Shown here piece after piece: positions 1-52,879 of a stretch of 52,879 bases of DNA; the first letter of the stretch is position 1; every line of letters begins with the position of its first letter. Both the position numbers and the translations under genes were made by a program. Source of the stretch: a virus (taxonomy: Duplodnaviria > Caudoviricetes); the IMG/VR virus record IMGVR_UViG_3300010222_000005, positions 1 to 52,879 of that record; one strand, written 5' to 3'. The notes below the pieces were generated by a model. It did no database searches and was not told where the DNA came from. It saw only the letters and a program-made list of their open reading frames with translations.

Positions 1-55
1 TCTCGTGTCCCGTGGTCGACTAGGACGAGCGTACCAGGAGCCTGTTCAGTACCGG
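1..55. repeat. 55-bp exact direct repeat, copy 1 (copy 2 at 47188-47242)
   Basis: TCTCGTGTCC...GTTCAGTACCGG is identical at both places; the sequences diverge immediately afterwards (TCGCG vs AGGTC). Confidence 0.97.
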
Positions 56-281
56 TCGCGCAGTGACCGCCGTCGGTCATCGCCACCGGCGGCGAGCGCG
101 GGTCGTGGTCGGGGTCGTCGAAGCATTCGGAACAGCACTGCATCGCTGTCCGCCTGGAGCGGTACCGGGTGCCGCAGAGAGCGCATTTGAACCACTCTTG
201 ATCTTGGTCTCGGTCCTGCTCGTCGTCGGAGTCGATACATCGGTCTGTGGGGCGCTGGCCCCCGCAGTCGTGGTCGTGCAT
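1..281 (-). CDS. Zn-finger protein fused in frame to a cassette domain (3' end runs off the window)
   Basis: Hand translation from ATG 281: MHDHDCGG...WFKCALCGTRYRSRRTAMQCC...AMTDGGHCATGTEQAPGTLVLVDHGTR. The last part is identical to the ORF at 46989-47261. Not in the supplied ORF track. Confidence 0.75.
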   Translation of the reverse strand, partial: MHDHDCGGQRPTDRCIDSDDEQDRDQDQEWFKCALCGTRYRSRRTAMQCCSECFDDPDHDPRSPPVAMTDGGHCATGTEQAPGTLVLVDHGTR

Positions 282-315
282 GGTAGGTTCGGGGTTGCTG
301 TCTGTTGCTGCTCTG

Positions 316-552
316 TCAGTCCTCGCGAGGATCACTGATAAGTCGGTACTCGCCGGTCGGCGCGTACCGTTGTTCGGCATGCTCAGCGGCCATCAGCTGC
401 TTGAGGTTATTCCGAACAGTCTCGCGGGAGTAGTCAATTTCTGCGGCGACGTGGCCAATCGTAGCACATGAGCAGGGCTGTTCGTTAAACCAGTCCAACA
501 CGTCTTCCATTGATTCAGTCCGCTGAATCGCCACACTCACTGGGTAGTTCAC
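316..552 (-). CDS. Small winged-HTH DNA-binding protein
   Basis: TIGHVAAEIDYSRETVRNNLKQL HTH followed by a wing-like segment (TGEYRL). Confidence 0.75.
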   Translation of the reverse strand: MNYPVSVAIQRTESMEDVLDWFNEQPCSCATIGHVAAEIDYSRETVRNNLKQLMAAEHAEQRYAPTGEYRLISDPRED

Positions 553-584
553 CCAGGCAGTAGTACTTTCCGTAGCGCCAAGTA

Positions 585-637
585 TTTTGCGATTACGCCA
601 GCCGTACTAACTTGGCGTACTGCAAAAGATTTATTAC
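585..637. promoter_or_regulatory. Divergent promoter region with imperfect inverted repeat
   Basis: TTTTGCGATTACGCCA...TGGCGTACTGCAAAA dyad (585-627) abutting BRE/TATA-like AAAAGATTTATTA about 25 nt upstream of ATG 660. Confidence 0.55.
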
Positions 638-659
638 CGTGGGGCAGTATGTGTCTAAT

Positions 660-1085
660 ATGAGCGCGAGTCCGCGACCCGAGGCTGACGCTGCTGAGGG
701 TCAGAAGGCGGCCCGGTGTACTCGCACCGGACCTGAGCGCTCTGCCCAACGTATGAGTCAGAGCACATCTACCTCCGCGTCCGCGGAGCAAGAAAGCATC
801 GACATCGCGGCCGACGTCACGCAGCTTGGCGTCTTCGGCGTCGACTGCGACGGCGACCTGCACCGATACCACCAGGCGACCGGCACGGTGGTCGTCACCG
901 ACCAGCACAATGAGATCATCCAGACCCAGCCAGGTCTCGACCGCGACAAGGTCACCGACAAGTGGCTCCCCTACGTCGGCGACGAGCGCGGCTGGGTCGA
1001 CCACTGGTTCAACGCCGAGAGCGCCGTCGACGTCGCCGGGCGCCTGGCGCGAGCGCTGGATGTCGTCCACGAGGGTGACCGATGA
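660..1085 (+). CDS. Hypothetical protein
   Basis: Acidic ORF just downstream of a TATA box; ATGA overlap with the next gene. Confidence 0.7.
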   Translation: MSASPRPEADAAEGQKAARCTRTGPERSAQRMSQSTSTSASAEQESIDIAADVTQLGVFGVDCDGDLHRYHQATGTVVVTDQHNEIIQTQPGLDRDKVTDKWLPYVGDERGWVDHWFNAESAVDVAGRLARALDVVHEGDR

Positions 1086-1702
1086 CGCTGACCGACCGCG
1101 TCACGCGCGCCCTCGAGGAACCGCTGCTGTGTGAGGTCCGCGCGCCGGGGCTCTACCAGGTCGTCCCGGTCGACGGCGGCGCCCACGACGACGAGCTGGG
1201 CTACACGGTCGACGTCCGCGAGGGCCGCTGCTCCTGTCCCGACCAGCAGTACGGCGACGCGCCAGCGTGCAAGCACGAGATTCGAGCCCGTGCGATGCAC
1301 GAGGCTCGCCGCGTCCGGGACGAGCCGCGGTTCGGTCGCGGCATCGCGCTTCAGGACGACAGCCCGGCCGTCGCGACCGACGGCGGGACTACCGCTGCAG
1401 CCGACGGCGACGGGCAACGCGACGACACGCCTGATGACATGGCCGCCTACACGCTGTTCGAGCTCAAGGGATATCTCGAGGAGTTCGCCGCCGGCGAGTT
1501 CGGCGAGCTGCGTGTCCACCGCGAGGATGGCGACGCGTACGCCGCCCGCGTCGAGGTCGACGACCAACGCCTGCGTTTTGAACTTGAAGGCGCCGGCTTC
1601 CGAACCGTTCGGGTTGACGAGGTCGACACCGAGTTCTACGTGCAGGCCAGAGACGAGCCCTTCGAGCACAGCTATGTCGACAGCGTGGAGGGCGAACGAT
1701 GA
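1082..1702 (+). CDS. SWIM Zn-finger domain protein
   Basis: YTVDVREGRCSCPD...ACKH fits the SWIM CxCx(n)CxH motif; a second domain follows a TDGG linker. Confidence 0.8.
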   Translation: MTLTDRVTRALEEPLLCEVRAPGLYQVVPVDGGAHDDELGYTVDVREGRCSCPDQQYGDAPACKHEIRARAMHEARRVRDEPRFGRGIALQDDSPAVATDGGTTAAADGDGQRDDTPDDMAAYTLFELKGYLEEFAAGEFGELRVHREDGDAYAARVEVDDQRLRFELEGAGFRTVRVDEVDTEFYVQARDEPFEHSYVDSVEGER

Positions 1703-1977
1703 GCCTCCAGCAGCACCGCGAGTCGCTCGTCGGCGTCGCAGACCGGCACCGGCAGCTGACCAACGACCTTGTCGGGCTTGACGGCGTCTTCGACGCCGCG
1801 ACCGTCGTTGACGGGCCGAACGCCACCGGCTCGACGCCCGAGTTCCGGACGGAGATCGTCGTCGCGCCCGAGCTCGACGCCGTCCCGCCGGCGGTGCTTG
1901 AGCATGTCGCCGCCTACGGTCTCGGCCTCAAGCCCCAGCCCGACCAGGGCGACCACGTTGTTGTGTGGGCGCGATAA
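1699..1977 (+). CDS. Hypothetical protein
   Basis: ATGA-coupled to the previous gene; GGAGG upstream. Confidence 0.7.
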   Translation: MSLQQHRESLVGVADRHRQLTNDLVGLDGVFDAATVVDGPNATGSTPEFRTEIVVAPELDAVPPAVLEHVAAYGLGLKPQPDQGDHVVVWAR

Positions 1978-1978
1978 C

Positions 1979-2833
1979 CTATTCTTCGATTTCGACGGTG
2001 TAATTGCCGTCGGCGACCACCTCGAGGAAGAACAGTCCACTAAGTCGGACGCTCGTCTCGCCGTCAAATGTTCCAATCTCGTTGAATATCACATCGTCCG
2101 GGATCCCGCGTCGGTTGGCTTCGTCCCACGCTAACACTTGGAAGTTGCTGTCGCCGTCGTGCTGGCCGCTGACGGTGACACGGCCGTCGATTTCGATCCA
2201 TCCGTACACGTCCGACTGCCCGCCGCTCAGGCGGCCCGGCGGGATGCCGTAGTTATCATCGTCCGGGCTGGGTTCACCGAGTTCGATGCTCCAGTCGCCA
2301 TCAGCATTAATATCCAAAAAGTACTCGCGGTCGGGGAGCCCGATGCCGACCGCTCCGCTCACGGCCCCGATCTTGTTGACGAGGACATCGACAAGGTCAC
2401 CGCTCTCCTCGTCGATCAGCTTGACGATGAAGTTGCTCGATCCATCATGTTGGTAGACGAACGTTGTGTACCGGCTCGCTGGGAACGTGTCGGTCACGGT
2501 CTGACCATTGCCTTGGACTGTGGTGGCGTTGAGGAGCCAGTCGGTGTTCGCTGAGACCGCGGCCATCTCACCGATTGAGTCCGGTTCGGTCGGCGTCTCG
2601 GACTCCGTCTCCGTGGCCGTCTCGGCGTCAGCGGTATCGGTCGGCGTCGAATCCTCCGTGTTATCGGCGGGCGTCTGGGTCTCTCCCTGCCCGGTGCCGC
2701 CGTCTTCGTCCGGATTAGCGGATAAGGCCCCGATCCCGACACAGCCTGCAAGTGCATAGATGCCCCCAACCGCCACGTTCCGCCGCGTCGTCTGCGAGTC
2801 GTCAATCCCCGGTAACCGATCAAACCGACCCAT
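1979..2833 (-). CDS. Predicted Tat-exported lipoprotein / surface protein
   Basis: TRRN...ALAGC (twin arginine plus lipobox-like), a Thr/Glu/Pro-rich linker and two repeated beta domains (HDGSSNFIV / HDGDSNFQV). Confidence 0.75.
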   Translation of the reverse strand: MGRFDRLPGIDDSQTTRRNVAVGGIYALAGCVGIGALSANPDEDGGTGQGETQTPADNTEDSTPTDTADAETATETESETPTEPDSIGEMAAVSANTDWLLNATTVQGNGQTVTDTFPASRYTTFVYQHDGSSNFIVKLIDEESGDLVDVLVNKIGAVSGAVGIGLPDREYFLDINADGDWSIELGEPSPDDDNYGIPPGRLSGGQSDVYGWIEIDGRVTVSGQHDGDSNFQVLAWDEANRRGIPDDVIFNEIGTFDGETSVRLSGLFFLEVVADGNYTVEIEE

Positions 2834-3070
2834 GGTCAGGCGTCAGGTGCCATCGGTAAAGTAGTAGGGGAGGTGTGAAACAACGCCAGAATTCAGTTTC
2901 GAGAGGTATTAACCAACAGGCGCGGTCGTAAACGCCACGCTGTTGGTTAAGTTCTACATTCACCTACAGAATCTGCCTGAAAGATTCGCCCGCAGGCGAT
3001 TCTCGCGTGTTCACTTTCACCATACCGGATAATTTCGTTTACAAATGTCCACCTCTTGATTCGGTCCCGT

Positions 3071-3331
3071 ATGGTGGGGCAAACGCTCCAGTCGGACGGG
3101 AGTGCTGAAGCTGACGCCGGCGAACGCGTCGTGATCGACCGTGAGAGCACACAGGATCGGTGGCGATATCGGTGCCCGAATAACCACACGCGCTGGGCAC
3201 CGACGAACAGCCATGTCTACTGCGCGAGCTGTGCCTCGGTAGCCGACTCGGGTGAGGGCCCCGAGTATTGGGCACTGCTCGACACGAAGACCGGCGAACG
3301 GATTCCGTGGTCGCGGGTGGTGTTCCGGTGA
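3071..3331 (+). CDS. Small Cys/His Zn-binding protein
   Basis: RYRCPNNH...VYCASC motif. Confidence 0.7.
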   Translation: MVGQTLQSDGSAEADAGERVVIDRESTQDRWRYRCPNNHTRWAPTNSHVYCASCASVADSGEGPEYWALLDTKTGERIPWSRVVFR

Positions 3332-3605
3332 TGGTAGCGTCAATCGGAGTCGTCGCTGACCTCCACCTCAGTCGATCCCTGCTCGAGTGCGTCCGGCGAC
3401 GGTGGCCGGGTGGAAGCCACCTTTCGGTCGTCGGTAAGAACGGTAATCAGGGTGCTCGTATGAGATCCAGTGACACCAATCAAAACGTCGCGGGTCAAGC
3501 AAGCGCGGATGCGCACCGTGGGGAATCAGTTAGCCACCGTCGGCATCGTTCTGCGGCTTCTCTTGTCCAACAGCTACTGAACGAGATTGCCACGCCCCGC
3601 CAGCG

Positions 3606-3782
3606 TCACTCCTCATTATCGCCGTCAGCCATTTCACGCTCAAGATACTCCTCCAGCGCCTCGCGGACGACTTCGGACTGGGTCGGCTCAAAGCGGTGTT
3701 GGTCTCGGAATTCCTCAAGCCGCTCGGCTAAGTCGTCGTTGACGCGAATGGACAGCTGCGATGCCATTGTGGTGACGGACAT
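3606..3782 (-). CDS. Ribbon-helix-helix (CopG-like) regulator
   Basis: QLSIRVNDDLAERLEE...QSEVVREALEEYL is a typical RHH pattern. Confidence 0.85.
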   Translation of the reverse strand: MSVTTMASQLSIRVNDDLAERLEEFRDQHRFEPTQSEVVREALEEYLEREMADGDNEE

Positions 3783-3907
3783 GTTCAGTATGCTCCGTAA
3801 TGAAATGTTGCGGTGCAACACTTATAATTCTCACGGTTTATATAAAGCCGTATATGTGTTGGGTGTAACATAATGCTTAAGTGCATGGCGTATGTTGCGT
3901 GTATTAC
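3783..3907. promoter_or_regulatory. Divergent promoters with three operator-like sites
   Basis: AT-rich gap containing TTTATATAAA, CTTATAAT and CTTAAG; related sites TGTTGCGGTGCAACA (3806-3820), TGTTGGGTGTAACA (3857-3870), TGTTGCGTGTATTACA (3893-3908). Confidence 0.65.
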
Positions 3908-4096
3908 ATGGAGGACGATAGCGTGACCTCGGAGTCCTCTGAGGCTGACGCGGATGAGCGGATTCATGTCCGCGTGCCGCCGGAACTCAAACAGCAGGTC
4001 AGAGTCGAGGCGGCCAAAGCCGGCCAGTCAATCTCGGAGTATGTCCGAGAGGGGCTTCGAGCAGACCTCGAAGGCAACACGACCGATGATGAGTAA
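3908..4096 (+). CDS. Ribbon-helix-helix regulator
   Basis: RIHVRVPPELKQQVRVEAAKAGQSISEYVREGL. Confidence 0.85.
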   Translation: MEDDSVTSESSEADADERIHVRVPPELKQQVRVEAAKAGQSISEYVREGLRADLEGNTTDDE

Positions 4097-4572
4097 CGCC
4101 ACTACCACGCCGCCAGCAGGTGCCTCGGTATTGTCCACGTTCGAGTCGTGGATGGCGGCCTTCGGACCATCGCGACGACTGTCCCGCACGTCCCGTACGG
4201 GGCCGCGGGCCGCCGTCGCAGGGGCCGTCCAGCCCCACCCCTGTATCGCTCATCAACCATCCATCGCAGACGACACCTGCATTGTGGGTTCCACCACCGA
4301 ACTCGCTCCTCTGTCCATGTGGCAGCTATCGGAGGCGGTCGAACCGGTCACATCATCCATGGACGACCGTCGCGATGGTCCGGCCGACCCAGGTGGCACG
4401 CCACCCGGCGCTGTCCAAGACGGCGTCGCGCGTGCGGCGGTTCGACTCCGCCGGTCGGCACTTAGAGGCACAGCTCGCTAACTAATCAGCGGTCGCAGTG
4501 CACCGGGAGCAGCCCCCGAACCTACCAAAGTCAGACGGCTGCTCGCCGGTGGGACGGATCAGCCCAAACACG

Positions 4573-4863
4573 ATGTCAATGGATGACCCGTCCGGTCGGG
4601 GGGAAGGACCGACCGGACAAAAGAGCAACGACGACGGCTCGCGGCCCAATGGTGGGCCCATCGAGCCAAGCGCATCGACACCGACGCCAACTGGAATTGC
4701 TCGCGAGGCCCGCAGCAACCTCCGCGAGCTCCGCGACCGGCTAGCCGCGGTGGAGGGGGCGAACAGCACCCGGGCGCTGACCGAGACTGAGGAGGCGCTG
4801 GAGGCGACCGGCTGTGCAATCGCGTTCATGACCGAGGCCGAGGCTAGAAGAGGTGGCAAATGA
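4573..4863 (+). CDS. Hypothetical protein (helical C-terminus)
   Basis: ATGA-coupled to 4860 with GAGGTG upstream of that start; own start codon uncertain. Confidence 0.55.
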   Translation: MSMDDPSGRGEGPTGQKSNDDGSRPNGGPIEPSASTPTPTGIAREARSNLRELRDRLAAVEGANSTRALTETEEALEATGCAIAFMTEAEARRGGK

Positions 4864-5606
4864 TGCAGGCGGCCATCCTGTACGCCCTCGAAGGCTCGCC
4901 GGACGGGGACATTATCGAATCGAAGCTGGACGGCCAACTGCCGGCGGTCGAAGCCCACGCGACGGAGTACCTCGACGGCCTGCGGCTCAGCCACGGGCAG
5001 GCCGCCGCTCGGATTCACGACGAGCGCACGCTCCCAATGCCGACCTCCAGCGGTATCGAGACCGAACAGATGGAGGTAACGCGGAAGGCCCTGGTCGACT
5101 TCTATGTCGACCTCGAGGGTGGCTGGGCCGGGATCTCCTCGTCGGACGGCGAGTGGTTCGTTGAGGAGTGGCTGCTCACGCAGCACAGCGTCGCGGGCCA
5201 CGAGATGATGCTGGACATGGAGGCATGGATTAGCGACTTCCTTGAGGAGTCCTCGCCCAAGGTGTGGGGCGTCAGCTACTCGGTCGAGGGGGACGACGAG
5301 ACCACCCGCGCCGGCGCGGACTTCCACCGCGACGCCGATCTCGACCAGCTGGAGCGGGACGATGAGCACATCTCGGGCGTCGGCTTCCGTTACGACTGGT
5401 CGGGCAACATCGTCCGCGGCGTCATCTACGAGTCCGGCTACGTCGCTCTCTACAACCACTTCACCGAGGAAGCCTTCGGCCGCTGGCTCGCCGACCATGT
5501 CATCCCGTACAGCTATTCGGATGTCGAGGCGGCCGCCGAGACCCACCAGACCACGCTCGGCGAGACGGCCGACGTCGAAGAATCGGGGGAAGAAGCCGAT
5601 GTCTGA
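4860..5606 (+). CDS. Hypothetical protein
   Basis: 248-aa acidic ORF with halophile-like composition. Confidence 0.8.
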   Translation: MMQAAILYALEGSPDGDIIESKLDGQLPAVEAHATEYLDGLRLSHGQAAARIHDERTLPMPTSSGIETEQMEVTRKALVDFYVDLEGGWAGISSSDGEWFVEEWLLTQHSVAGHEMMLDMEAWISDFLEESSPKVWGVSYSVEGDDETTRAGADFHRDADLDQLERDDEHISGVGFRYDWSGNIVRGVIYESGYVALYNHFTEEAFGRWLADHVIPYSYSDVEAAAETHQTTLGETADVEESGEEADV

Positions 5607-5742
5607 GGAGGCCGCCGAGAAAATCCAAGACGCGCTGAACCTGGCGGCCGTCGGCGAGGCCGACATCGAGACGCTGAAAACGGAGTTCGAGAAGGGCCTG
5701 GAGAAGCTCGAATACCTCGAGGAGATGCGGGGGGAGACCTGA
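5599..5742 (+). CDS. Small helical protein
   Basis: MSEEAAEKIQDALNL...; overlaps both neighbours. Confidence 0.65.
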   Translation: MSEEAAEKIQDALNLAAVGEADIETLKTEFEKGLEKLEYLEEMRGET

Positions 5743-5900
5743 TGCGACGCCGTCGAATAGTCAAGAGCGTCCGGCAGTACGCCGGCGTCGGCGACCAGTC
5801 CGACGCGTGCCGCAACGGGACGGTCGGCTGCCCCGGTGAGACGGTCGGCGACGAGTTGCCCTGCTCGGCGTGCTTCCTCAACGGGGCTGGTGACCAGTGA
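5742..5900 (+). CDS. Cys-rich microprotein (52 aa)
   Basis: Hand translation MRRRRIVKSVRQYAG...ACRNGTVGCPG...LPCSACF; fills the gap exactly with TGATG/GTGA overlaps. Confidence 0.65.
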   Translation: MRRRRIVKSVRQYAGVGDQSDACRNGTVGCPGETVGDELPCSACFLNGAGDQ

Positions 5901-6394
5901 CCGAGCAGTCCTCAGACGTATATACTGAGGCCACGTTCCACGGCTACGACAGCGTCAGCAGCGCGCTGGAGGCCGCCGGCGCCACGAAGAACCCGGCCAG
6001 CGTCCATTCGGCGCTGAAGCGGGTGTACCACGAGGCTATTGGCGAGCCCGCCGAGCCCGCAGCCTCGGACTACCTCGCAGCCATCAGCGCCACCGACGGC
6101 GCCCTCTGCGTCGAGCTGGACCGCGAGCAGCCCATCATCTTCCGGGGCGGCAAGGCGGTCCCGGACGGCGCCGATACCGACTACCAGCGCTACGACGAGG
6201 CCGTCGAGGAGCCCGTCGTCGTGGACGTCCCGTCGGCGGTCATCTCTAACTGGGTCGCCCAGTGGGGTGGGTCGCTACGGCTCTACGACGACCGCGTCGC
6301 TGGGTGGTTCGGCAATGCCGACCCGTTTGGCGGCGACAGCGATGTTGACCTGGAGATGCAGGCAGCGCGAACCCGCTCTTACAGGGGGCCCTGA
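5897..6394 (+). CDS. Hypothetical protein
   Basis: Acidic ORF within the operon. Confidence 0.75.
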   Translation: MTEQSSDVYTEATFHGYDSVSSALEAAGATKNPASVHSALKRVYHEAIGEPAEPAASDYLAAISATDGALCVELDREQPIIFRGGKAVPDGADTDYQRYDEAVEEPVVVDVPSAVISNWVAQWGGSLRLYDDRVAGWFGNADPFGGDSDVDLEMQAARTRSYRGP

Positions 6395-6396
6395 CG

Positions 6397-7353: not shown

Positions 7354-7484
7354 GCGGCGTCGACTGTCCAGTCTGTGGCGCCGTCGTCGAGTGTGAATGG
7401 AAGTGTCAGGCCTGCGGTAAGCCGCGGCCGTTCGGAACCCGCGACGGCGTCGGGGCCGGTGCACAGGATGGGGGAGGACGATGA
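7350..7484 (+). CDS. CPxCG-type Zn-finger microprotein (44 aa)
   Basis: Hand translation MSGVDCPVCGAVVECEWKCQACGKP...; ATGA overlaps at both ends. Confidence 0.75.
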   Translation: MSGVDCPVCGAVVECEWKCQACGKPRPFGTRDGVGAGAQDGGGR

Positions 7485-20930: not shown

Positions 20931-20932
20931 CC

Positions 20933-21943: not shown

Positions 21944-22040
21944 CCTGACTCAGGTAAATCGAACTGGTCTGTGGCCGATGACCCCCGCACGACACCCTCC
22001 ATGAGCATGGAGAAGGGCGAGGACCTGGGCCGGAGTCACT

Positions 22041-23369: not shown

Positions 23370-23380
23370 GGTGAGCACGA

Positions 23381-23872: not shown

Positions 23873-23876
23873 AACC

Positions 23877-46364: not shown

Positions 46365-46651
46365 TGGTCGGCCTCCTGGTCAGTATCCGGCTCTACTGAT
46401 CGGTCGGTTCCGCCGTCGGAAAGTAACGGTGGGTCGCCATTACCGAGACTGAACGCGCGGTTACAACATCGGCAAAAGTGGATTTTCCACGCTCTCTTAC
46501 CACCGTCCGGATGTTCAAGCGCCTGCACACGTTCGCCAGCCGCCTCTCGGGGACAGGTGGCGCAATCCGTCTCGTCCCCTAGAGTCCCGTAAATGTCCTG
46601 TTCAGTGCCGTCCTCAGACACCTCGATCACCTCTGGTCGTATGATCGTCAC
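46361..46651 (-). CDS. CxxC cassette protein
   Basis: CATC...CRCC; ends SDGGTDRSVEPDTDQEADQ (junction motif). Confidence 0.7.
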   Translation of the reverse strand: MTIIRPEVIEVSEDGTEQDIYGTLGDETDCATCPREAAGERVQALEHPDGGKRAWKIHFCRCCNRAFSLGNGDPPLLSDGGTDRSVEPDTDQEADQ

Positions 46652-46754
46652 AGATACCTTTCGCTCTCGGCACCTCGTTGAGACACTCCGGCACCTCGCA
46701 CTCCTGCCAGTGTTTCAGATGGTCAGTCCTGCCTGAGACTTGACTGTTAACCAC
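46614..46754 (-). CDS. Cys/His microprotein (46 aa)
   Basis: Hand translation from GTG after GGAGGTGA: MVNSQVSGRTDHLKHWQECEVPECLNEVPRAKGICDDH... Confidence 0.55.
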   Translation of the reverse strand: MVNSQVSGRTDHLKHWQECEVPECLNEVPRAKGICDDHTTRGDRGV

Positions 46755-46787
46755 TGTCGCTCACCTCCTCGGACCGCTCATTATCCG
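46731..46787. repeat. 57-bp gene-junction repeat J1, copy 1
   Basis: 56/57 identical to 48185-48241. Confidence 0.95.
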
Positions 46788-46992
46788 GTGCGAGTGATCG
46801 GTCGCACTCCTCGCTCGCCGCCGGCGTCGCGCCGGGGGAGGCGGACATCGCGCGGATAACGCTTTTATAGTTTGTATCTGAGGTAAGCACGCAGTCAACG
46901 CACAGGTAGTCATTGTCGCTTGTGGGGACGACAACCAGGTCGCCGCACTCTTCGCAAATCCGGTCAACACCGTCTAAGTCGGGGCCGGTCAT
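46747..46992 (-). CDS. CxxC cassette protein
   Basis: CEECG...CVDC; ends DRSLAPDNERSEEVSDSG. Confidence 0.7.
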   Translation of the reverse strand: MTGPDLDGVDRICEECGDLVVVPTSDNDYLCVDCVLTSDTNYKSVIRAMSASPGATPAASEECDRSLAPDNERSEEVSDSG

Positions 46993-47261
46993 CGCTTTTC
47001 CTCCTGCTCGTTGTTCGTTGCGAGTGAACGGACCGAACCAGCGCACTCGTCACAACAGCGGCGCGTCTCGAGGTCAAACCACTCCGAAATATCCATTCGG
47101 ACCTCGTCGGTCGCACCGCAACCAACACCCTGTCCGCAGGCCGTTGCGTGTTCGTCCCCATCGAAGGATATCGAGTGGTGCCACGTCTCTCGTGTCCCGT
47201 GGTCGACTAGGACGAGCGTACCAGGAGCCTGTTCAGTACCGGAGGTCAACCCATCGGTCAT
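46989..47261 (-). CDS. Cys/His cassette protein
   Basis: Starts MTDGLTSGTEQ; WHH..TACG..CCDEC; ends RSLATNNEQEEKR. Confidence 0.75.
   Translation of the reverse strand: MTDGLTSGTEQAPGTLVLVDHGTRETWHHSISFDGDEHATACGQGVGCGATDEVRMDISEWFDLETRRCCDECAGSVRSLATNNEQEEKR
47188..47242. repeat. 55-bp exact direct repeat, copy 2
   Basis: Identical to 1-55. Confidence 0.97.
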
Positions 47262-47506
47262 TGGAAAGCACCGTCCATGGTACCCGTGTTCATCAATCGC
47301 GCAATGTCTTCTGCGTAGCCTCCGGCCATGCGATAGTAGCCGCGGGCCAGCTCAGGATCGTGATCCTCGTGCCCTGCTGCAACATCGATGATGTCCAACA
47401 ATGTCCAGACGGCTCTCTCACCCCCGTCTTCGGGATCATGTGTAATGGTTGCTGGTTGCTCAATACCGCTGCTGTCGTGATCAGTTGGGCTGTCGTTAGA
47501 TGTCAT
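47258..47506 (-). CDS. Cassette protein
   Basis: Starts MTSNDSPTDHDSSGIEQ. Confidence 0.7.
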   Translation of the reverse strand: MTSNDSPTDHDSSGIEQPATITHDPEDGGERAVWTLLDIIDVAAGHEDHDPELARGYYRMAGGYAEDIARLMNTGTMDGAFQ

Positions 47507-47546
47507 ATTAGGCGTCCTCCCGCTTGTTATCTGTGTCTAATGACTG
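47456..47546. repeat. 91-bp degenerate gene-junction repeat J2, copy 1
   Basis: Ungapped match to 49389-49479, 66/91 by hand count. Confidence 0.85.
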
Positions 47547-47780
47547 TTTTATTTGCAAGGAAACAGCGTAAGCTCGTTCGACGGCAGCTGGAAGTTTGGC
47601 GATATCTCTGTCGGAGTGCTGTGATGTTCCGCATTCCGGACAAGTCCAAGGGTCTCCCGGCGTCGATTGCTCTGAGCCACAATTCATACAGATTCGGGGA
47701 GCAGGGTTTATTGTCCCATAGCGAAGATGCACTGGCTCCCCGTACTGTCGTTTAGCACCGCCTGAGGACTGCTCGCTCAT
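47508..47780 (-). CDS. CPxCG cassette protein
   Basis: Starts MSEQSSGGAKR; CMNCG...CPECG; ends QSLDTDNKREDA. Confidence 0.75.
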   Translation of the reverse strand: MSEQSSGGAKRQYGEPVHLRYGTINPAPRICMNCGSEQSTPGDPWTCPECGTSQHSDRDIAKLPAAVERAYAVSLQIKQSLDTDNKREDA

Positions 47781-47986
47781 CCGTTGACCACCTCGCACTT
47801 ACGCCCGGCGGTCCCGTTCAGGTTGAGCCACATCTCCGTGTGCTCGTCACAGTAACTCATTTTGATCATCGTCGTTTCGATTTCGCCAGTTACACTTTTG
47901 TAATGAGATTCCATGTGGAGTGTCGTGGTTGAGTCGTCGTGACATTTGACTGTGGCGCACTCCTCCCGTTCAGTATTGTCACTCAT
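47777..47986 (-). CDS. Cys/His cassette protein
   Basis: MSDNTER; CATVKC...YCDEH. Confidence 0.7.
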   Translation of the reverse strand: MSDNTEREECATVKCHDDSTTTLHMESHYKSVTGEIETTMIKMSYCDEHTEMWLNLNGTAGRKCEVVNG

Positions 47987-48158
47987 CCGAGCGGTCACCT
48001 TCCTTCTGAATTATATATTCGGCAATCCCCTCTAACTCCTCTTTAGTAAAAAATCCGGGCTTCTCCATTGACTGACCAATTTTAGCAATCCGGTTTATAT
48101 TGTCTCTGATCTCTTGGACTGTCTGTTCAGCCTTATCCATGGATTTATCACCTGACAT
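47979..48158 (-). CDS. AT-rich 59-aa cassette protein
   Basis: Hand translation MSGDKSMDKAEQTVQEIRDNINRIAK...FTKEELEGIAEYI...GDRSDE. Confidence 0.6.
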   Translation of the reverse strand: MSGDKSMDKAEQTVQEIRDNINRIAKIGQSMEKPGFFTKEELEGIAEYIIQKEGDRSDE

Positions 48159-48184
48159 CAGTAGATCACCGCCCAGTCACTATC

Positions 48185-48241
48185 GCCTGAGACTTGACTG
48201 TTAAACACTGTCGCTCACCTCCTCGGACCGCTCATTATCCG
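48185..48241. repeat. 57-bp gene-junction repeat J1, copy 2
   Basis: 56/57 identical to 46731-46787. Confidence 0.95.
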
Positions 48242-48449
48242 TGTCAACAGAACGGTCGTATCGCCCTGCTTCCCCGTCGGAAGTATATTCAGGCTTCCCG
48301 ACGTTCTGAACGTTCCGCACGCCGAACGCCTGGCCGTCGCGACCGTATCCGCAGCGATTACACTCCGAGGCGTTCTGGTGGTTCTTCGCGCCACAGTCTG
48401 CGCACCACATGTGCCATTTATTGGCGATGTGGTGGCGTTTCGTCGTCAT
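48201..48449 (-). CDS. Zn-ribbon cassette protein
   Basis: CADCGAKN...CNRCGY; ends DRSVDTDNERSEEVSDSV. Confidence 0.75.
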   Translation of the reverse strand: MTTKRHHIANKWHMWCADCGAKNHQNASECNRCGYGRDGQAFGVRNVQNVGKPEYTSDGEAGRYDRSVDTDNERSEEVSDSV

Positions 48450-49114
48450 GCTATCACCGCCCCGCACCGCCCGCAGCAGTGCCCGTGATCGAGAGTTACC
48501 ACTGCCTCGTTACAGTCGCACTCGGAATAGGCCCAGACCGTCACGTCGCGGCGTCGGTCGTCACGGCCACGGTTGATGATGGCCGCCTCACCGACCGCCT
48601 CGTGGCGAGTCTCGAAGGCCTGCGAGTGGTCGATGCCGTAGTACCATTTGACCTGTCCGCCGCGGTCAGTACCGGCTGAGCACCTACCGCCGTCGGTCAC
48701 GAAACCACGGTCAAGGTCGAGGTCGCCCCGCTCAAACGCGCGCCAGTGGTGGATGCAGAGGTAGTCGTACGGATCATTTGGACCGCCGTACGTCCCGAGG
48801 AGCCCGGGCCGACCAAGGTCTGGCTCCTCGCCACAGTAGTTGCAGGTCCGTTCGGTCTCCGCGTCTACAGAACGGCTCTTTCGGTCATTGGTTGCTTCAA
48901 GTAAGGTTAGCTGGGTGGTGGACTCATCAGCCTCGCGTTTTGCGATTGGTCCATTACTGTTCCAAATCTCGACTCCGCGAACATGTGGATCAACTGCTTT
49001 GTGATCTCCTTCGTGTCCCGACCGCCGGACGCATTTATTCCCGTTTTCGTTCTCTTCAAGACAGGTTGGTGGCACTTCTGACAGCGTCTCAACAAACTTA
49101 TTTTCAATCGTCAT
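48446..49114 (-). CDS. Three-domain fusion of Cys/His cassettes
   Basis: Domains separated by internal junction peptides RSVDAETER and TDGGRCSAGTDR. Confidence 0.75.
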   Translation of the reverse strand: MTIENKFVETLSEVPPTCLEENENGNKCVRRSGHEGDHKAVDPHVRGVEIWNSNGPIAKREADESTTQLTLLEATNDRKSRSVDAETERTCNYCGEEPDLGRPGLLGTYGGPNDPYDYLCIHHWRAFERGDLDLDRGFVTDGGRCSAGTDRGGQVKWYYGIDHSQAFETRHEAVGEAAIINRGRDDRRRDVTVWAYSECDCNEAVVTLDHGHCCGRCGAVIA

Positions 49115-49260
49115 TTGAATGTCGACCTCCCCACCAGCTTCGATGTTGTCTCGAGGCAGTCCTCGCAGGTCAACACAAGCCGTCCATTACTGACGCTGTA
49201 CGAGACATCCCCACTATCGCATTCAGGGCAGGTCAAAAATCGTTCTACACTATCTGTCAT
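49111..49260 (-). CDS. CPxC microprotein
   Basis: MTDSVER; CPEC...CEDC. Confidence 0.7.
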   Translation of the reverse strand: MTDSVERFLTCPECDSGDVSYSVSNGRLVLTCEDCLETTSKLVGRSTFK

Positions 49261-49439
49261 TCTATCAACACCCCACATTCGGGGCAAAGCCATTGCATCT
49301 CTCCGACCGAGTTCTCAACAGACTCCATCGGCGTCGGCTTGTGCGGCTGTCTGCTGCCATCGAAGTCCACATCCACCCCGTGGCAGATTCGTTCATTACC
49401 GCTACTGTCATGACCGGTTGGGCCATTGCTAGCTGTCAT
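49257..49439 (-). CDS. CPxCG microprotein
   Basis: Starts MTASNGPTGHDSSGNER; WLCPECG. Confidence 0.7.
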   Translation of the reverse strand: MTASNGPTGHDSSGNERICHGVDVDFDGSRQPHKPTPMESVENSVGEMQWLCPECGVLIE

Positions 49440-49479
49440 GTTAGACAACGTCTTGATGGTTAGCTGTGCCTACTGATTG
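49389..49479. repeat. 91-bp degenerate gene-junction repeat J2, copy 2
   Basis: Matches 47456-47546. Confidence 0.85.
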
Positions 49480-49833
49480 AGCGAGTCGATCCGCGTGCTC
49501 GGCGATCACCTCTGCGTGGCAGGCTGGGTCATCATTGTCGAGCGACTGGCACCAGCACCCGAGAGTCGTCCCTGAGAGGTTACGGACGGCCTCTCTAAAC
49601 TCGTCGTCACCTCGGAGACGAGATTCGAAGTCGTCGCGGAACAAGTCGATAGACTCGGATCTGGTGTATCCGTCGTCGAGCGGATGTGGGTTCCCAAGCC
49701 ACCCGCGAGAACCTATCTCTGTGTTACTCATCGACCGACCACCAGTACCGCGACCGACGTACACATGCGTTTCGTCTCGCTTGCAGTGACCGATTCGGGT
49801 CCGTTCAGTACCGCTTGTGGATTGTTCAGTCAC
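49441..49833 (-). CDS. DUF4326 domain protein (first cassette of the array)
   Basis: VYVGRG...LGNP...LSGTTLGCWC...ACHAEVI; starts MTEQSTSGTER. Confidence 0.88.
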   Translation of the reverse strand: MTEQSTSGTERTRIGHCKRDETHVYVGRGTGGRSMSNTEIGSRGWLGNPHPLDDGYTRSESIDLFRDDFESRLRGDDEFREAVRNLSGTTLGCWCQSLDNDDPACHAEVIAEHADRLAQSVGTANHQDVV

Positions 49834-49871
49834 AATAGTTCACACTCTTTTGCGTGGATAAGCATGCCTCG

Positions 49872-49885
49872 AATATATAAATAGG
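49872..49885 (-). promoter_or_regulatory. TATA box for the leftward cassette operon
   Basis: TTTATATA on the minus strand about 40 nt upstream of GTG 49833. Confidence 0.6.
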
Positions 49886-50683
49886 GGAGGATCATCACTT
49901 ATTATTCGGTGTCATTGAGGTATCCTTCTCCGAGGTCATGGATTGAAACAGGCCTGAGTCACGACTCTCCTATGAGAAAAATGCCGTCGCCGATGTCGGA
50001 CTGTAGTGAACCAACCCCTACCTGCTCAGCAAGGCCGCCAATAAGGAAGAGCCGCGTGAGCGGCCCCAACCAACCCGAATGGGTCTTTAGGAGGGTCCCC
50101 GAGGATGCGCCATGGTCTTCGGTTTGGCCGTAATATTGGGTCCAGTAACCAGCTTTTCCCTTGTGGCCAAACGTTGAATCATAGCGCAGATGGGGCTAAG
50201 GCCCGGTGGGCATATTAATGTTTGAGTGCTGAGGTGAAAGTCCAAAATCGAGATATTGAGCCGGTATTTGTCTTATCAAATTTTTTCTATATGTGCGGAT
50301 AGAATGTTAGCAAATGTTAGTTAATCGGTGGCTCGGAATGGTCAGACCGTGCATCGAGCCCGGTTTGAGAGCCAAGTGCTGATTTAGCAGGTGAACTAGA
50401 TGGTGAGTCGGAGCCACAGACGTATTTTATCCGCTGTTGATACCTATGGACACGGTCGAGGGCGTCCGAAGCGAGAGTAGAGACGCCATTCATCGGTTAT
50501 GTACACCGTCGGGTCTTTAGCCGGGTCTGGTTCGTAGATACGAGAGCGTCGCGGCTCACGCTGAGAAATGCCGCAGTCTTATGCGTGACAAAAGACAGTA
50601 TCTCATCTGTCGACCCGCATGCAGTTGATGGCGTTACTCATTCAGAGCTGCGAAAGAAATCAGTCCAAACTAATTCCTATAGA

Positions 50684-50744
50684 TGTTGCACTAATAACTA
50701 CAACAAGATTTAAGTGGGTTGGTGTTGTATTACTAAGTACAACA
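50684..50744 (+). promoter_or_regulatory. Promoter flanked by two 22-bp palindromic operators
   Basis: TGTTGCA-N8-TACAACA (50684-50705) and TGTTGTA-N8-TACAACA (50723-50744) either side of TTTAAG. Confidence 0.75.
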
Positions 50745-50756
50745 GAGGATATCATA

Positions 50757-52133
50757 ATGGTTGCACCCAACGTCACTCTGAATGGCGACGACGACAGTAA
50801 GTACCCAAGTCCGGACGATGACGACAGCGAGTATCTAAAGGCGATGACCGACGGCGGCGTCAACGAATTCTCAACCGAGATTCACATCGATTATCTTGCA
50901 GCGTTCTCCGATGAAGTTGACGAACAAACGGTTGATGCGACAGTCACTCGCGACGACGAACTGGTCAAAATCGAAACGCCAGAAAATGAACTCCGTCTCC
51001 GGCCGAACGAAGAACACGGCATCGTCCATCTGTACTCGGAATATGATCGTGAGGAATTTACCCACAGCCAGCTTGCACACCTTCGATACCGTGGTAACGA
51101 GAACCGTATCTCCGTCAGCTGGAAACACGCCGACCAGAATGTTGACTCGATTACCCTCTGTGATAGTGCCTACCAGTTGGTATTGAATGTTCTCGACGAT
51201 GTCCGGCAGGCACAGAACCACTTGACGGTCGAGCAAGTTCATAACGTGACCAGCGTCGAAATTCCCGCGCTCCCATTAGTCGTGACTGAAACACCGGTCA
51301 CACGTGGAACTGGGACTGGTCGTCAGACTAGCACGGAACTGGTTGTCGAACCCGATTCTGCTGCGGATGTCGATAGTGAGGAATGGAAGCAATGGCGAAC
51401 GATTGTGCAGCGAGCCGGACACCATCAATTTACACATTTTAAAGACCACATGTGGCCCCCAGAGGGAGAGGGCTATGAGGAGGGTGATCGGCTGACTCTC
51501 CACGAGTACATCAATGAATGGCACGCCATCGACGCCGGCGATGTGGCGAGCGAAGCTGAACTCGCTGAGCTGGAACTTGAGACTGACCTCTCAGTCGGAG
51601 ATTTTGTGACGGTTGCCAACGGCCGTCATCGTGATGACCTAACCGAGCGCCAAGGCGTTATTCGTGACGTTGAGGAATCTCGCGCAGAGATCACATGGGA
51701 CGGACATAGTTGGTCAACACTCAGACGCGACGACGACGGCCAGCTCCGAGTGGGCCGGGCGGGGGGTTACTCCCCGGTCCGCGACCTAGAAGTTCATCCC
51801 GACCCCGCAGAGATTGCCGACGAACTCTCCGACGTCAGAGAGAATGTCATGGAGTCTATGGAGGTCGACCAACAGGCGAACACCTACGATGTAGCAGTCG
51901 AGCGAACGTGGGAAACTAGTGGTGCTGTCGAAGCAGACCGGGCGAGCGACCTCCATGCAGAGGTTACTGTTGACGGACCAGGGCTCACTGATCCGGTAAC
52001 CGTCCACTGTCGCAACGCATTCGATTTCGGCTGGACGGCGAATATCAAGGGCGACCTCGACGAAGACACAGCGGCGGCCGTGAAACGAGCGGTTCGTAAT
52101 AACAGCCCGATCCCGACCGGGGTACGGTTATGA
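50757..52133 (+). CDS. Multidomain hypothetical protein
   Basis: Acidic, 458 aa from ATG 50757; KOW/SH3-like segment (LSVGDFVTVANG). Confidence 0.8.
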   Translation: MVAPNVTLNGDDDSKYPSPDDDDSEYLKAMTDGGVNEFSTEIHIDYLAAFSDEVDEQTVDATVTRDDELVKIETPENELRLRPNEEHGIVHLYSEYDREEFTHSQLAHLRYRGNENRISVSWKHADQNVDSITLCDSAYQLVLNVLDDVRQAQNHLTVEQVHNVTSVEIPALPLVVTETPVTRGTGTGRQTSTELVVEPDSAADVDSEEWKQWRTIVQRAGHHQFTHFKDHMWPPEGEGYEEGDRLTLHEYINEWHAIDAGDVASEAELAELELETDLSVGDFVTVANGRHRDDLTERQGVIRDVEESRAEITWDGHSWSTLRRDDDGQLRVGRAGGYSPVRDLEVHPDPAEIADELSDVRENVMESMEVDQQANTYDVAVERTWETSGAVEADRASDLHAEVTVDGPGLTDPVTVHCRNAFDFGWTANIKGDLDEDTAAAVKRAVRNNSPIPTGVRL

Positions 52134-52393
52134 ATGATGAGACTACGTTTCGAGTCGAATTTATCACCGGCGAGACAGTCGACATGGGATTTGAGGATGA
52201 GGCTGCGGAGTCACTTCGAACCCTGCTTCCACAGGCAACAACAATACTTGGCTGTCCCGACTGCGGTGATCTCGCCCCCGTGACTGGCGGCATCCCAAAG
52301 CGAGAGATGCCTCAGTGCGCGCGCTGTGAAGACGAGTTGACTGGCGTCACGGAGGTCCACGAGCTTGATTTGGAGGAGGACACTGATGAGTGA
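52130..52393 (+). CDS. CPxCG Zn-ribbon protein
   Basis: CPDCG...CARC. Confidence 0.75.
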   Translation: MNDETTFRVEFITGETVDMGFEDEAAESLRTLLPQATTILGCPDCGDLAPVTGGIPKREMPQCARCEDELTGVTEVHELDLEEDTDE

Positions 52394-52631
52394 GACGGAA
52401 CCTGAGGACTGGCGCGAGCGGGCGGCACAGCTCCGTGAGCACGGTGTTCCAGACCAGCGGGCCAACGTTGCCGCGCTCCGAGAACAGGGGCGTTCTTACA
52501 GCGAGATTGCATCAGAACTCGGGTTTGGGGCGGACAACGACGACCGTTCTCAGGTCAAATACCACATCGATGCGTATCGAAGCCACCGAGAAGACGCTGA
52601 ATGGCTCGTCGAACACGGACCGACGCTATGA
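52386..52631 (+). CDS. HTH DNA-binding protein
   Basis: ALREQGRSYSEIASELG...RSQVKYHI; GGAGGA upstream. Confidence 0.8.
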   Translation: MSETEPEDWRERAAQLREHGVPDQRANVAALREQGRSYSEIASELGFGADNDDRSQVKYHIDAYRSHREDAEWLVEHGPTL

Positions 52632-52879
52632 CACCCTCTGCGCCGTGAACGGCGATACTCTCTCCCTAAATTAGGTAGCAATTTTGGACCGATTTATGCA
52701 GTTGCATGAGTTTAACCCCGATCGATAGTGGGACGTAAGCGCCGCATCGATGAAGACGAAGTCCCCCTGGGACGCCGGCGCGCACCCTCGAAGCCGGTCA
52801 ACGCTGCGAAGGGCCCGATGAGCAAAACGGCTGGGAAAGAACCGGGGGCTCGGTTGGTGGTGAGGGCATGCTTCATTCC

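What the first reader, a model, noticed from the sequence alone, without database searches (positions are those of the whole stretch)
1..281. Same cassette, two upstream partners: breakpoint exactly at the junction core
Seen: bases 1-55 equal 47188-47242. On the minus strand both encode GTEQAPGTLVLVDHGTR. At 47.2 kb it is a stand-alone gene (MTDGLTS-GTEQ); at the window start it is fused in frame behind a Zn finger (...AMTDGGHCAT-GTEQ). Identity stops at CCGGTACTGAAC, the core shared by the array junctions. Inference: this captures a recombination event at a junction site. 55 is also a common assembler k-mer length, so the repeat length is probably an assembly overlap, but the two alternative junctions would still both have to exist in the reads.
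Basis: partly seen in the sequence, partly recalled or inferred. Interest (0 to 1): 0.85.

Follow-up and report, generated by a model that had tools for sequence, protein, structure and literature searches.

The report
Assembly-graph branch at a halovirus module boundary
The 55-base repeat at the start of this haloarchaeal virus contig is an assembler overlap that marks a fork where two co-occurring viruses share one small gene but differ upstream of it, at a short linker motif where small genes in this region are often re-joined.

Summary
Bases 1-55 equal 47188-47242 exactly. On the minus strand the same small gene stands alone at 47.2 kb and sits in frame behind a zinc finger at the contig start.

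The window is a whole 52,879-base IMG/VR contig. One copy of the repeat begins at its first base and is exactly 55 nt long, the size of a common de Bruijn k. I read it as a graph vertex, not a repeat in a genome.

Contigs from the likely source run show three things:
- one 40x unitig ends at 46456;
- only short 77-145x unitigs follow it;
- a 145x unitig ends exactly at 47242.

The tail 47243-52879 is a compositional outlier. Two other samples hold it without most of the 40-46 kb stretch laid. Bases 56-47187 carry a full virus gene set, and the four nearest isolates are 42-46 kb.

The contig is therefore most likely a 47,187-base cycle plus 5.6 kb from a more abundant relative.

The biology is still real. 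The breakpoint is where the zinc-finger family ends and the cassette family begins. A GT[ED][QR] linker motif is enriched in this gene array, and alternative in-frame joins at it occur in three samples.

Interest is moderate.

The parts
1..55 (.). Copy of the 55-nt repeat at the first base of the contig. I read it as the k=55 vertex of the assembly graph.
47188..47242 (.). Internal copy of the same 55 nt. A 485-nt, 145x unitig of run X1 (46758-47242) ends exactly at its last base.
3..281 (-). B form: zinc-finger module followed in frame by the first 17 residues of the cassette. The ORF runs off the contig start.
   Evidence: Zinc-finger family P0020-P0023 and P0030.
46989..47261 (-). A form: stand-alone 90-aa cassette gene. 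The family has 14 near-length and 5 longer homologues, and its conserved core starts at TEQAPGT.
47258..47506 (-). Upstream partner gene of the A form (82 aa). Its stop overlaps the cassette's ATG.
46457..47242 (.). Stretch covered only by high-depth X1 unitigs (145-162x). I infer it is shared by the 40x genome and a more abundant relative.
   Evidence: tables 2, 3, 8
47243..52879 (.). Tail (A branch). GC is 0.546 against 0.634 for the body. It is a tetranucleotide outlier, is covered by 77-118x unitigs, and is present in X2 and X4 without most of the 40-46 kb stretch laid.
48664..48675 (-). Core copy (1 mismatch) at the internal junction of the fused ORF 48446-49114, coding AGTD. It is an end of X1 joint 48665->49805 and of X2 joint 48674->46971.
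49803..49814 (-). Core copy (1 mismatch) in the leader of the DUF4326 gene 49441-49833, coding SGTE. It is an end of X1 joints 46403->49808 and 48665->49805.
48446..49114 (-). Three-module fused ORF (222 aa). Each module occurs as a stand-alone protein elsewhere, and the module borders lie at ETER and GTDR.
46731..46787 (.). 57-nt repeat, 56 of 57 identical to 48185-48241. It covers the shared C-terminal tail of two unrelated small genes plus the start of the next gene, and is a second kind of junction.
   Evidence: (D4)

Best explanation
The 55-nt repeat is not a repeat within a genome. It is the k=55 vertex at which a de Bruijn assembler started this contig.

In the source sample at least two related haloarchaeal tailed viruses share a stretch of about 0.8 kb (46457-47242) that contains the cassette gene. 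Upstream of the cassette (on the minus strand) they diverge:
- The 40x virus, which makes up the body of the contig, continues into base 56. There the cassette is fused in frame behind a zinc-finger module.
- A relative about 2.6 times more abundant continues into 47243. There the cassette is a separate gene.

The contig is a walk that closes a 47,187-base cycle, which is probably the complete, circularly permuted or plasmid-like genome of the 40x virus. It then runs on for 5.6 kb into the other virus.

The fork sits at a true module boundary: the zinc-finger family ends there and the cassette family begins there. This array of small early genes is built from modules separated by short, similar linker-coding sequences. 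One is a leader ending in GT[ED][QR]; the other is a tail of the form RS[LV]..D[NT]E[RQ]. These are the only similar stretches between otherwise unrelated neighbours, so they serve as crossover points. Exchanges there re-join modules in frame, either as separate genes or as fusions.

What is shown and what is inferred:
- Shown: the repeat, the branch, the depth step, the odd composition of the tail, the module families and the alternative joins.
- Inferred: the assembler and its k, the assignment of the two junctions to two genomes, closure of the cycle, and recombination at the linker as the cause.
For: k-mer vertex:
- The repeat is exact, 55 nt long, begins at base 1 of a whole contig and has its second copy inside the contig.
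- Passages read in PMC5481147 say that SPAdes picked k21-55 by default and that SPAdes assembly leaves overlapping sequence at contig ends.

Branch and depth in run X1, which holds 0.95 of the sampled words:
- One 11,049-nt unitig at 40.1x covers 40000-46456 and stops there.
- After that come only unitigs of 463-894 nt at 77-145x.
- The 485-nt, 145.3x unitig 46758-47242 ends on the last base of the repeat.
- The listed unitigs beyond it lie at 76.9-117.8x, and 145 minus about 105 leaves about 40, the depth of the body.

The tail is foreign in composition:
- GC is 0.546, below the minimum (0.590) of 408 body windows of the same length.
- Tetranucleotide distance to the body profile is 0.354, against a maximum of 0.192 in 41 body windows.

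Other samples: X2 and X4 cover 46.4-52.9 kb at 4-7x. In 40.0-46.0 kb they have little or nothing, apart from part of the helicase gene (table 2).

The cycle is plausible as a genome:
- Bases 56-47187 hold a replication protein, exonuclease, large terminase, portal, head morphogenesis protein, capsid, tape measure, ParA-like protein and helicase.
- The four nearest isolates by portal protein or by the 412-aa protein are 46,173, 46,474, 42,293 and 45,142 bases long.

Module boundary:
- In 19 cassette homologues the conserved part begins at TEQAPGT and the residues in front of it differ.
- In zinc-finger homologues P0020-P0023 and P0030, conservation runs up to TDGG plus a few residues. A different C-terminal partner then follows.

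Linker motif:
- GT[ED][QR] occurs 0 times in 13,223 body residues and 6 times in 2,070 array residues. The tail motif occurs 0 and 4 times. Hardycor1 has 3 and 0 in 13,901 residues.
- The core uses the minority codons GGT, ACT and GAA.

Alternative joins:
- 7 of the 8 joints I ran through a script are in frame.
- 5 of the 10 joints I examined have an end in a core copy.
- The X2 join that I read by hand is confirmed by the N-terminus of P0001 and the C-terminus of P0035.
- P0015-P0017 are cassette-DUF4326 fusions joined at the tail/leader motif.
Against: - CheckV rates the contig 76% complete. That implies an expected genome of about 70 kb, larger than the 47.2-kb cycle.
- Depth cannot separate 'cycle plus foreign tail' from 'two copies in one genome plus other strains', because flow through a vertex is conserved either way.
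- I could not lay contigs on the window start (read laying allows one call). The depth of 56 onwards and the 55/56 junction are therefore unverified, and I did not see which letter follows 47242 on the second branch in X1.
- The assembler and its k are not on record.
- Metagenome graphs contain spurious cycles (PMC9104695, abstract start in the listing).
- Early-gene regions can have odd composition without being foreign.
- One joint at a core (48665->49805) has only 21 letters on its shorter side. The tool warns that joints laid below 95% likeness (I used 88) or with a side under 30 often come from other organisms or repeats.
- An aligner will tend to break split alignments at similar short sequences, which inflates the count of joints at cores.
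- One scripted joint is out of frame, and one is internal to the cassette.
- No related locus with flanks could be fetched from any contig collection, so context in relatives rests on proteins and Logan contigs only.
Confidence: 0.6

Rival explanations
1. Both junctions lie in one virus genome larger than 52.9 kb. That genome carries two identical copies, each at least 485 nt long, of the cassette region: one stand-alone and one fused behind the zinc finger. The assembler could not resolve the repeat, so it cut the contig at it.
For: CheckV gives 76% completeness, so more sequence is expected. The depths fit equally well if the 40x genome holds both copies and other strains add about 65x to the tail. 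Short paralogous repeats do exist inside the array (57 nt).
Against: The tail differs in GC and tetranucleotide use from every part of the body. X2 and X4 hold the tail but not most of 40-46 kb. The four nearest isolates are 42-46 kb. Bases 56-47187 already hold a full gene set with a single divergent and a single convergent switch of strand.
Confidence: 0.17
2. One reading: the array is a cassette system with a dedicated junction site, and the contig has caught one site-specific recombination event at that site.
For: The core is enriched in the array. Several alternative joins end in it. The core uses minority codons, which suggests conservation at the DNA level.
Against: No integrase or other site-specific recombinase appeared among the 30 window proteins I scanned against Pfam or PHROGs; not every ORF was scanned. 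The exact repeat length and position are those of an assembler overlap. The two junctions differ in depth class and composition. The core is coding and varies, since many homologues have other residues there. Other joints use other short similarities, such as the 57-nt tail repeat and 4-6 nt overlaps.
Confidence: 0.08
3. The linker motifs are conserved for the proteins and not for recombination. They might be a processing or recognition site that flanks every module, or a Shine-Dalgarno sequence encoded in the acidic tails. On this view, crossovers at them are a by-product, or breakpoints there simply survive selection.
For: The motif sits in front of unrelated domains in proteins from many samples: 15 of 19 cassette homologues and 9 of 11 anchored Y-module homologues, by a loose pattern. 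The tails encode GGAGG-like sequences just before the next start codon. That these match the 16S rRNA 3' end is recalled, not tested.
Against: The same minority codons recur at the core, and stretches of 10-14 identical nt are shared between otherwise unrelated junctions. Neither is needed for a peptide motif. No protease was identified.
Confidence: 0.15

Closest known systems
k-mer overlaps at contig ends in de Bruijn assemblies (SPAdes-type), including the end-to-end overlap of circular contigs
   Same: An exact repeat whose length equals a default k (55) and which starts at a contig's first base. SPAdes chose k21-55 by default and leaves overlaps at contig ends (PMC5481147, passages read).
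   Different: The second copy is not at the other end of the contig. It lies 5.6 kb before it, so this is a closed cycle with an extra branch appended. IMG/VR accordingly classes the record as linear.
The 'short conserved boundary sequences' model of phage mosaicism, set against illegitimate recombination followed by selection
   Same: Junctions between mosaic modules lie at short similar sequences at gene borders (PMC3029335, passages read). That paper also describes an inserted gene whose C-terminal 18 residues repeat those of the upstream gene, much like the 57-nt tail repeat here.
   Different: Here the similar sequences are coding and keep the frame. The same joint can therefore separate two genes or link two domains of one protein. 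The evidence comes from metagenome contigs, not from isolates.
PeSL cassettes in the hyperplastic regions of T4-type phages
   Same: Arrays of small, mostly unknown genes are shuffled by recombination between short repeated motifs that flank them (PMC2839356, abstract read; PMC4122927, listing only).
   Different: PeSLs are intergenic promoter plus stem-loop units. In this array genes overlap by ATGA, the motif lies inside the reading frames, and no promoter or terminator role is evident.
Integron gene cassettes (attC sites plus IntI integrase); recalled, not looked up
   Same: A one-directional array of small genes with a recurring junction sequence.
   Different: No integrase was found among the 30 proteins scanned. 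The junction is a coding linker, not an imperfect inverted repeat, and fusions are in frame.
Haloarchaeal tailed viruses HJTV-4, Humcor1, Hardycor1 and HATV-3
   Same: The head genes are nearest HJTV-4 and Humcor1 (capsid 75% and 60% aa). The tail genes are nearest Hardycor1 (tape measure 42% aa). Genome sizes are 42-46 kb, and Hardycor1 also has many small CxxC proteins (PMC7911831, passages read).
   Different: None of the array genes or tail-region genes has a match in these three genomes. The cassette gene and the 504-aa protein, the two queried, have no match in the phage collection either, nor has the DNA of 44000-52879.

Membership tests
De Bruijn k-mer overlap at a contig end (assembly artefact) | Exact repeat whose length equals an assembler k | tested here: met
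   55 of 55 identical. 55 is the largest default k of SPAdes in the passage read. The assembler used for this contig is not on record.
De Bruijn k-mer overlap at a contig end (assembly artefact) | One copy lies flush with a contig end | tested here: met
   The window is the whole contig and the repeat starts at base 1.
De Bruijn k-mer overlap at a contig end (assembly artefact) | An independent assembly of the reads branches at the same place | tested here: met
   The Logan unitig of X1 covering 46758-47242 ends at 47242. I did not see the second branch itself.
Direct terminal repeat of a complete circular or permuted virus contig | The same sequence at both ends of the contig | tested here: not met
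   The last 55 nt have no second copy. The partner of bases 1-55 is internal, at 47188. IMG/VR classes the record as linear.
Integron-like site-specific cassette array | A tyrosine or serine recombinase encoded beside the array | tested here: not met
   No recombinase family among the 30 window proteins scanned with Pfam or PHROGs. Smaller ORFs were not all scanned.
Integron-like site-specific cassette array | A structured (inverted-repeat) recombination site at each cassette border | tested here: inconclusive
   The repeat finder listed no inverted repeat at the junctions among the 25 pairs shown. No folding was done.
PeSL-type modular shuffling | Intergenic promoter plus stem-loop motif flanking each ORF | tested here: not met
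   Neighbouring array genes overlap or abut (ATGA overlaps at 47258-47261 and 46989-46992). The recurring motif lies inside the ORFs.
Cassette protein family (unnamed; core TEQAPGT ... WHHS ... CCDECAGSVRSL) | Full-length alignment with conserved core residues | tested here: met
   14 homologues of similar length and 5 longer ones. The identities given for the 14 plus the window's own fragment are 56-83%. There are 15 invariant columns in alignment A2. No Pfam family matches. The AlphaFold model is poor (pLDDT 48.4).
Pfam DUF4326 (ORF 49441-49833) | Score above the curated cut-off | tested here: met
   62.9 bits against a cut-off of 25, over residues 13-112. The leader lies outside the domain.
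Graaviviridae-like haloarchaeal tailed virus | Shared core structural genes with family members | tested here: inconclusive
   Portal 59% and 34% aa, and capsid 60% and 23% aa, to Humcor1 and Hardycor1. No genome-wide or tree-based test was done.

The most novel reading that the evidence does not exclude
The GT[ED][RQ]-coding core and the matching C-terminal tail motif are a dedicated in-frame joint: a coding-sequence counterpart of PeSL or attC sites. At this joint haloarchaeal viruses swap, delete and fuse small zinc-finger and other early-gene modules. A population would then hold a combinatorial library of separate and fused small proteins, perhaps directed against host defences.
Probability: 0.22. 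Interest if true: 0.7.

Novelty: new variant of a known kind. Interest (0 to 1): 0.4.

Why it matters
There are two practical points. First, this IMG/VR record is probably a chimera of a complete virus genome of about 47.2 kb and 5.6 kb of a relative. Anyone using it for genome size, completeness, gene content or host linkage should cut it at 47242. An internal copy of a contig's first k bases is a simple flag for the same problem elsewhere.

Second, there is a biological point. Whether phage mosaic joints arise at short conserved boundary sequences or at random with later selection is an old question. This array offers unusually clear material for it:
- unrelated modules carry recurring coding linkers;
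- several alternative in-frame joins occur in natural populations;
- the same modules are found both split and fused.

The idea can be tested with long reads and with a recombination assay in a haloarchaeal host.

Tried and rejected
Searches for relatives with flanking DNA:
- An exact 22-nt pattern in viral contigs gave 0 hits.
- The protein and the alignment A1 in viral contigs and metagenome contigs gave no confirmed locus.
- Genome contigs gave one 12-residue match in a Holophagales MAG, which I treat as spurious (L004).

Phage collection: there was no match for the DNA of 44000-52879, for the cassette protein or for the 504-aa tail-region protein.

The idea that the head of the window (56-8000) and the tail (47243 onwards) are alternative versions of one locus is rejected. 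They share no similarity beyond the 55-mer and short motifs.

The AlphaFold model of the cassette has mean pLDDT 48.4, too poor for a fold search, so none was run.

tblastx of the window against three isolate genomes gave hundreds of tiny linked hits and was discarded. A per-ORF tblastn replaced it.

I hoped synteny with isolates would test closure of the cycle. It could not, because only head and tail genes are shared.

Rfam gave no match in the window.

Parts of the laid stretch without cover in X2-X4 are used only as a hint, since the tool warns that a hole proves nothing.

The small shares of words in X2-X6 (0.08-0.15) are not used to name a habitat.

I asked for no paper supplements. They are closed, and none bears on a claim here.

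I found no paper describing in-frame linker joints in haloviruses. That rests only, which were listings of the top 15 and 12 papers.

Full report
**The observation**

The window is a complete IMG/VR virus contig of 52,879 bases. IMG/VR classes it as linear, and CheckV estimates 76% completeness.

Bases 1-55 are identical to 47188-47242. This is the longest exact repeat in the window. Of the 54 repeated 21-mers, 35 belong to it.

On the minus strand both copies encode the same 17 residues.
- At 46989-47261 they belong to a 90-aa ORF. Its ATG overlaps the stop codon of ORF 47258-47506.
- At the contig start they follow a Cys-rich ORF in frame, and that ORF runs off the contig.

Identity ends inside GTTCAGTACCGG.

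**Why the repeat is an assembly feature**

A repeat that is exact, 55 nt long and flush with the first base of a contig is what a de Bruijn assembler leaves at a graph vertex. Passages read in PMC5481147 say that SPAdes chose k21-55 by default and that SPAdes assembly creates overlapping sequence at contig ends. The assembler used for this record is not known to me, so this step is an inference.

Because the partner copy is internal, the contig describes a cycle of 47,187 bases (from the vertex through base 56 and back to 47187) followed by a second exit from the same vertex (47243-52879).

**What public runs show**

One run, X1 (a rock metagenome), holds 0.95 of the sampled words of 42880-52879 and is probably the source sample. 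Five halite runs hold 0.08-0.15.

I laid Logan contigs of X1-X4 on 40000-52879 at 88% likeness. In X1:
- A single 11,049-nt unitig at 40.1x covers 40000-46456 and stops there.
- Beyond it the listed pieces are 463-894 nt long, at 76.9-145.3x.
- The 485-nt unitig 46758-47242 (145.3x, no differences from the window) ends exactly on the last base of the repeat. An independent k=31 assembly therefore branches at the same place.
- The listed pieces after it lie at 76.9-117.8x. 145 minus about 105 leaves about 40, the depth of the body.

A contig of X4, from another study, spans 47148-47350. The stand-alone junction therefore exists in an independent sample.

The zinc-finger junction at 55/56, and the depth of 56 onwards, rest on the contig alone.

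**One genome or two**

Depth cannot decide this, because flow through a vertex is conserved in either case. Four other lines favour two genomes.
1. The tail 47243-52879 has GC 0.546. The body has 0.634, and the lowest of 408 equally long body windows is 0.590. The tail's tetranucleotide distance to the body profile is 0.354, against a maximum of 0.192 for 41 body windows.
2. X2 and X4 cover 46.4-52.9 kb at 4-7x. They have little or nothing on 40.0-46.0 kb apart from part of the helicase gene. The tool warns that holes prove nothing, so this is only a hint.
3. Bases 56-47187 hold a full set of genes: a RepH-like replication protein, exonuclease, large terminase, portal, head morphogenesis protein, capsid, tape measure, ParA-like protein and helicase. 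The strand switches once by divergence (552/612) and once by convergence (about 38.5-39.2 kb).
4. The nearest isolates are HJTV-4 (46,173 bases), Humcor1 (46,474), Hardycor1 (45,142) and HATV-3 (42,293). Hardycor1 also assembled as a circle and is thought to be circularly permuted (PMC7911831, passages read).

Against this stand CheckV's 76% and the known problem of spurious cycles in metagenome graphs (PMC9104695, abstract start in a listing).

My estimates are:
- about 0.6 that the contig is a complete cycle plus 5.6 kb of a more abundant relative;
- about 0.17 that one larger genome holds two copies.

**The breakpoint is a module boundary**

The cassette has 14 homologues of similar length and 5 longer ones. 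In all 19 the conserved part starts at the residues aligned with TEQAPGT, and what lies in front differs.
- Most have short leaders of various sequence.
- P0004 has another zinc finger in front.
- P0007 has an unrelated N-terminal domain.
- P0015-P0017 carry the cassette fused in front of DUF4326.

The zinc-finger part of the window-start ORF also forms a family. P0020 (77% identical), P0021, P0022, P0023 and P0030 are conserved up to TDGG and a few residues beyond. Each then continues with a different C-terminal partner.

The place where the two window copies stop being identical is therefore the end of one module family and the start of another.

**A recurring linker**

Within the array of small minus-strand genes (about 45.7-49.8 kb, plus the window start):
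- GT[ED][QR] occurs 6 times in 2,070 residues and 0 times in 13,223 residues of the body.
- A C-terminal tail motif, RS[LV]..[DNG][TN][ED], occurs 4 times in the array and 0 times in the body.
- Hardycor1 has 3 and 0 in 13,901 residues.

On the + strand the octamer TCAGTACC occurs only at 46, 47233, 48666 and 49805. The core uses GGT, ACT and GAA, which are minority codons even within the array (0.34, 0.19 and 0.34).

A 34-nt stretch (46-79) is 82% identical to 48666-48699, although the sequences on both sides of it are unrelated.

ORF 48446-49114 is a three-module fusion. The search returned 19 shorter proteins:
- 6 match only its first module;
- 1 matches only its second module;
- 12 match only its third module.

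The borders fall at ETER and GTDR.

A second kind of junction is a 57-nt repeat (46731-46787 and 48185-48241, 56 of 57 identical). It covers a shared C-terminal tail and the start of the next gene.

**Alternative joins in natural populations**

Table 5 lists 11 joints. I ran 8 through a script, read 2 that carry inserted letters by hand, and left 1 (44545->44674) unexamined.

By codon phase, 7 of the 8 scripted joints are in frame and 1 is not. One of the 7 is a 72-nt deletion inside the cassette. Another is only an overlap of two alignments within the 57-nt repeat.

Among the 10 joints examined, 5 have an end in or abutting a core copy:
- X1 46403->49808
- X1 48665->49805
- X2 47241->48852
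- X2 48674->46971
- X3 49401->45744

The X2 join gives the cassette a third leader, and gives the first module of ORF 48446-49114 its own stop codon. Both products exist as stored proteins: the N-terminus of P0001 and the C-terminus of P0035. Each is recorded on a longest contig of 5,337 nt.

Two X1 variants join a gene's first few codons directly, and in frame, to another gene's last codons.

Several caveats apply.
- I laid the contigs at 88% likeness.
- One core joint has a shorter side of only 21 letters.
- The tool warns that such joints can come from other organisms or repeats.
- Aligners tend to break split alignments at similar short sequences.

**Mechanism**

I infer that these short coding similarities, the only likeness between otherwise unrelated neighbours, act as crossover points. 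Exchanges there keep the reading frame, so modules can be passed around as separate genes or as fusions.

No integrase or other site-specific recombinase was found among the 30 window proteins scanned, and 9-14 nt is short for ordinary homologous recombination. The enzymology is therefore open.

The motifs may equally be kept for the proteins, or for ribosome binding of the next gene, with crossovers there as a by-product.

**Comparison with what is known**

The closest known ideas are these.
- The boundary-sequence model of phage mosaicism and its rival, illegitimate recombination followed by selection (PMC3029335, passages read). That paper also reports an inserted gene that shares its C-terminal 18 residues with its upstream neighbour.
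- PeSL-mediated modular shuffling in T4-type phages (PMC2839356, abstract read).

The difference here is that the junction lies inside reading frames and keeps the frame.

The 55-nt repeat itself is an artefact. The underlying mosaic joint is a new variant of a known kind. I did not find it described for haloviruses in two literature searches, of which I read only the listings.

**Verdict**

The record is probably chimeric at 47242/47243.

Interest is 0.4. It is ordinary as an assembly feature, and moderately interesting as a natural example of in-frame module shuffling at recurring linkers.

Noticed in passing
window 41150-41420: Two degenerate direct repeat units of about 88 nt. Each contains the finding's core on the opposite strand (CCAGTACTGAAC and CCAGTACTGAAG, at 41188 and 41276). 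They lie in a non-coding gap of about 550 nt between ORF 40621-41100(-) and the helicase gene 41657-43639(-). They could be iterons or another regulatory element.
   Followed up: partly
window 4383-4461: A tRNA-Leu (anticodon CAA) gene lies on the + strand of the virus body.
   Followed up: no
window 48446-49114 (-): This 222-aa ORF is a fusion of three modules. Each is found as a stand-alone protein of 76-98 aa in other metagenomes.
   Followed up: yes
window 46731-46787 and 48185-48241: A 57-nt repeat (56 of 57 identical) covers the shared C-terminal tail (DNERSEEVSDS) of two otherwise unrelated small genes and the start of the next gene. Two joints (X2, X4) end inside a copy of it and a third (X2) ends 11 nt before one.
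   Followed up: partly
window 46403/49808 and 48000/49253 (variants in run X1): Contig variants join the first 2-9 codons of one gene in frame to the last 7-14 codons of another. This leaves mini-ORFs with a leader and a tail but no domain, at 11.3x and 7.0x.
   Followed up: partly
window 47099-47172: A low-depth (5.1x) X1 variant has an in-frame 72-nt deletion inside the cassette gene, removing residues 31-54.
   Followed up: no
window 18001-34364: The body is itself mosaic. The head genes are nearest HJTV-4 and Humcor1 (capsid 75% and 60% aa). The tail genes are nearest Hardycor1 (tape measure 42% aa).
   Followed up: partly
window 9491-12019 and 39651-40430: A RepH-like replication protein (31.5% aa to ChaoS9 RepH) and a ParA-like protein suggest plasmid-type maintenance. 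No integrase appeared among the proteins scanned.
   Followed up: no
window 46472: The only X1 contig laid there (161.7x) has A where the window has G. The shared stretch therefore differs by at least one base between the contig and that unitig (table 3).
   Followed up: no
P0015-P0017 (proteins from other metagenomes): In these proteins the cassette is fused in front of DUF4326. The join lies where the cassette's tail motif meets the leader motif seen in the window's DUF4326 gene 49441-49833.
   Followed up: partly
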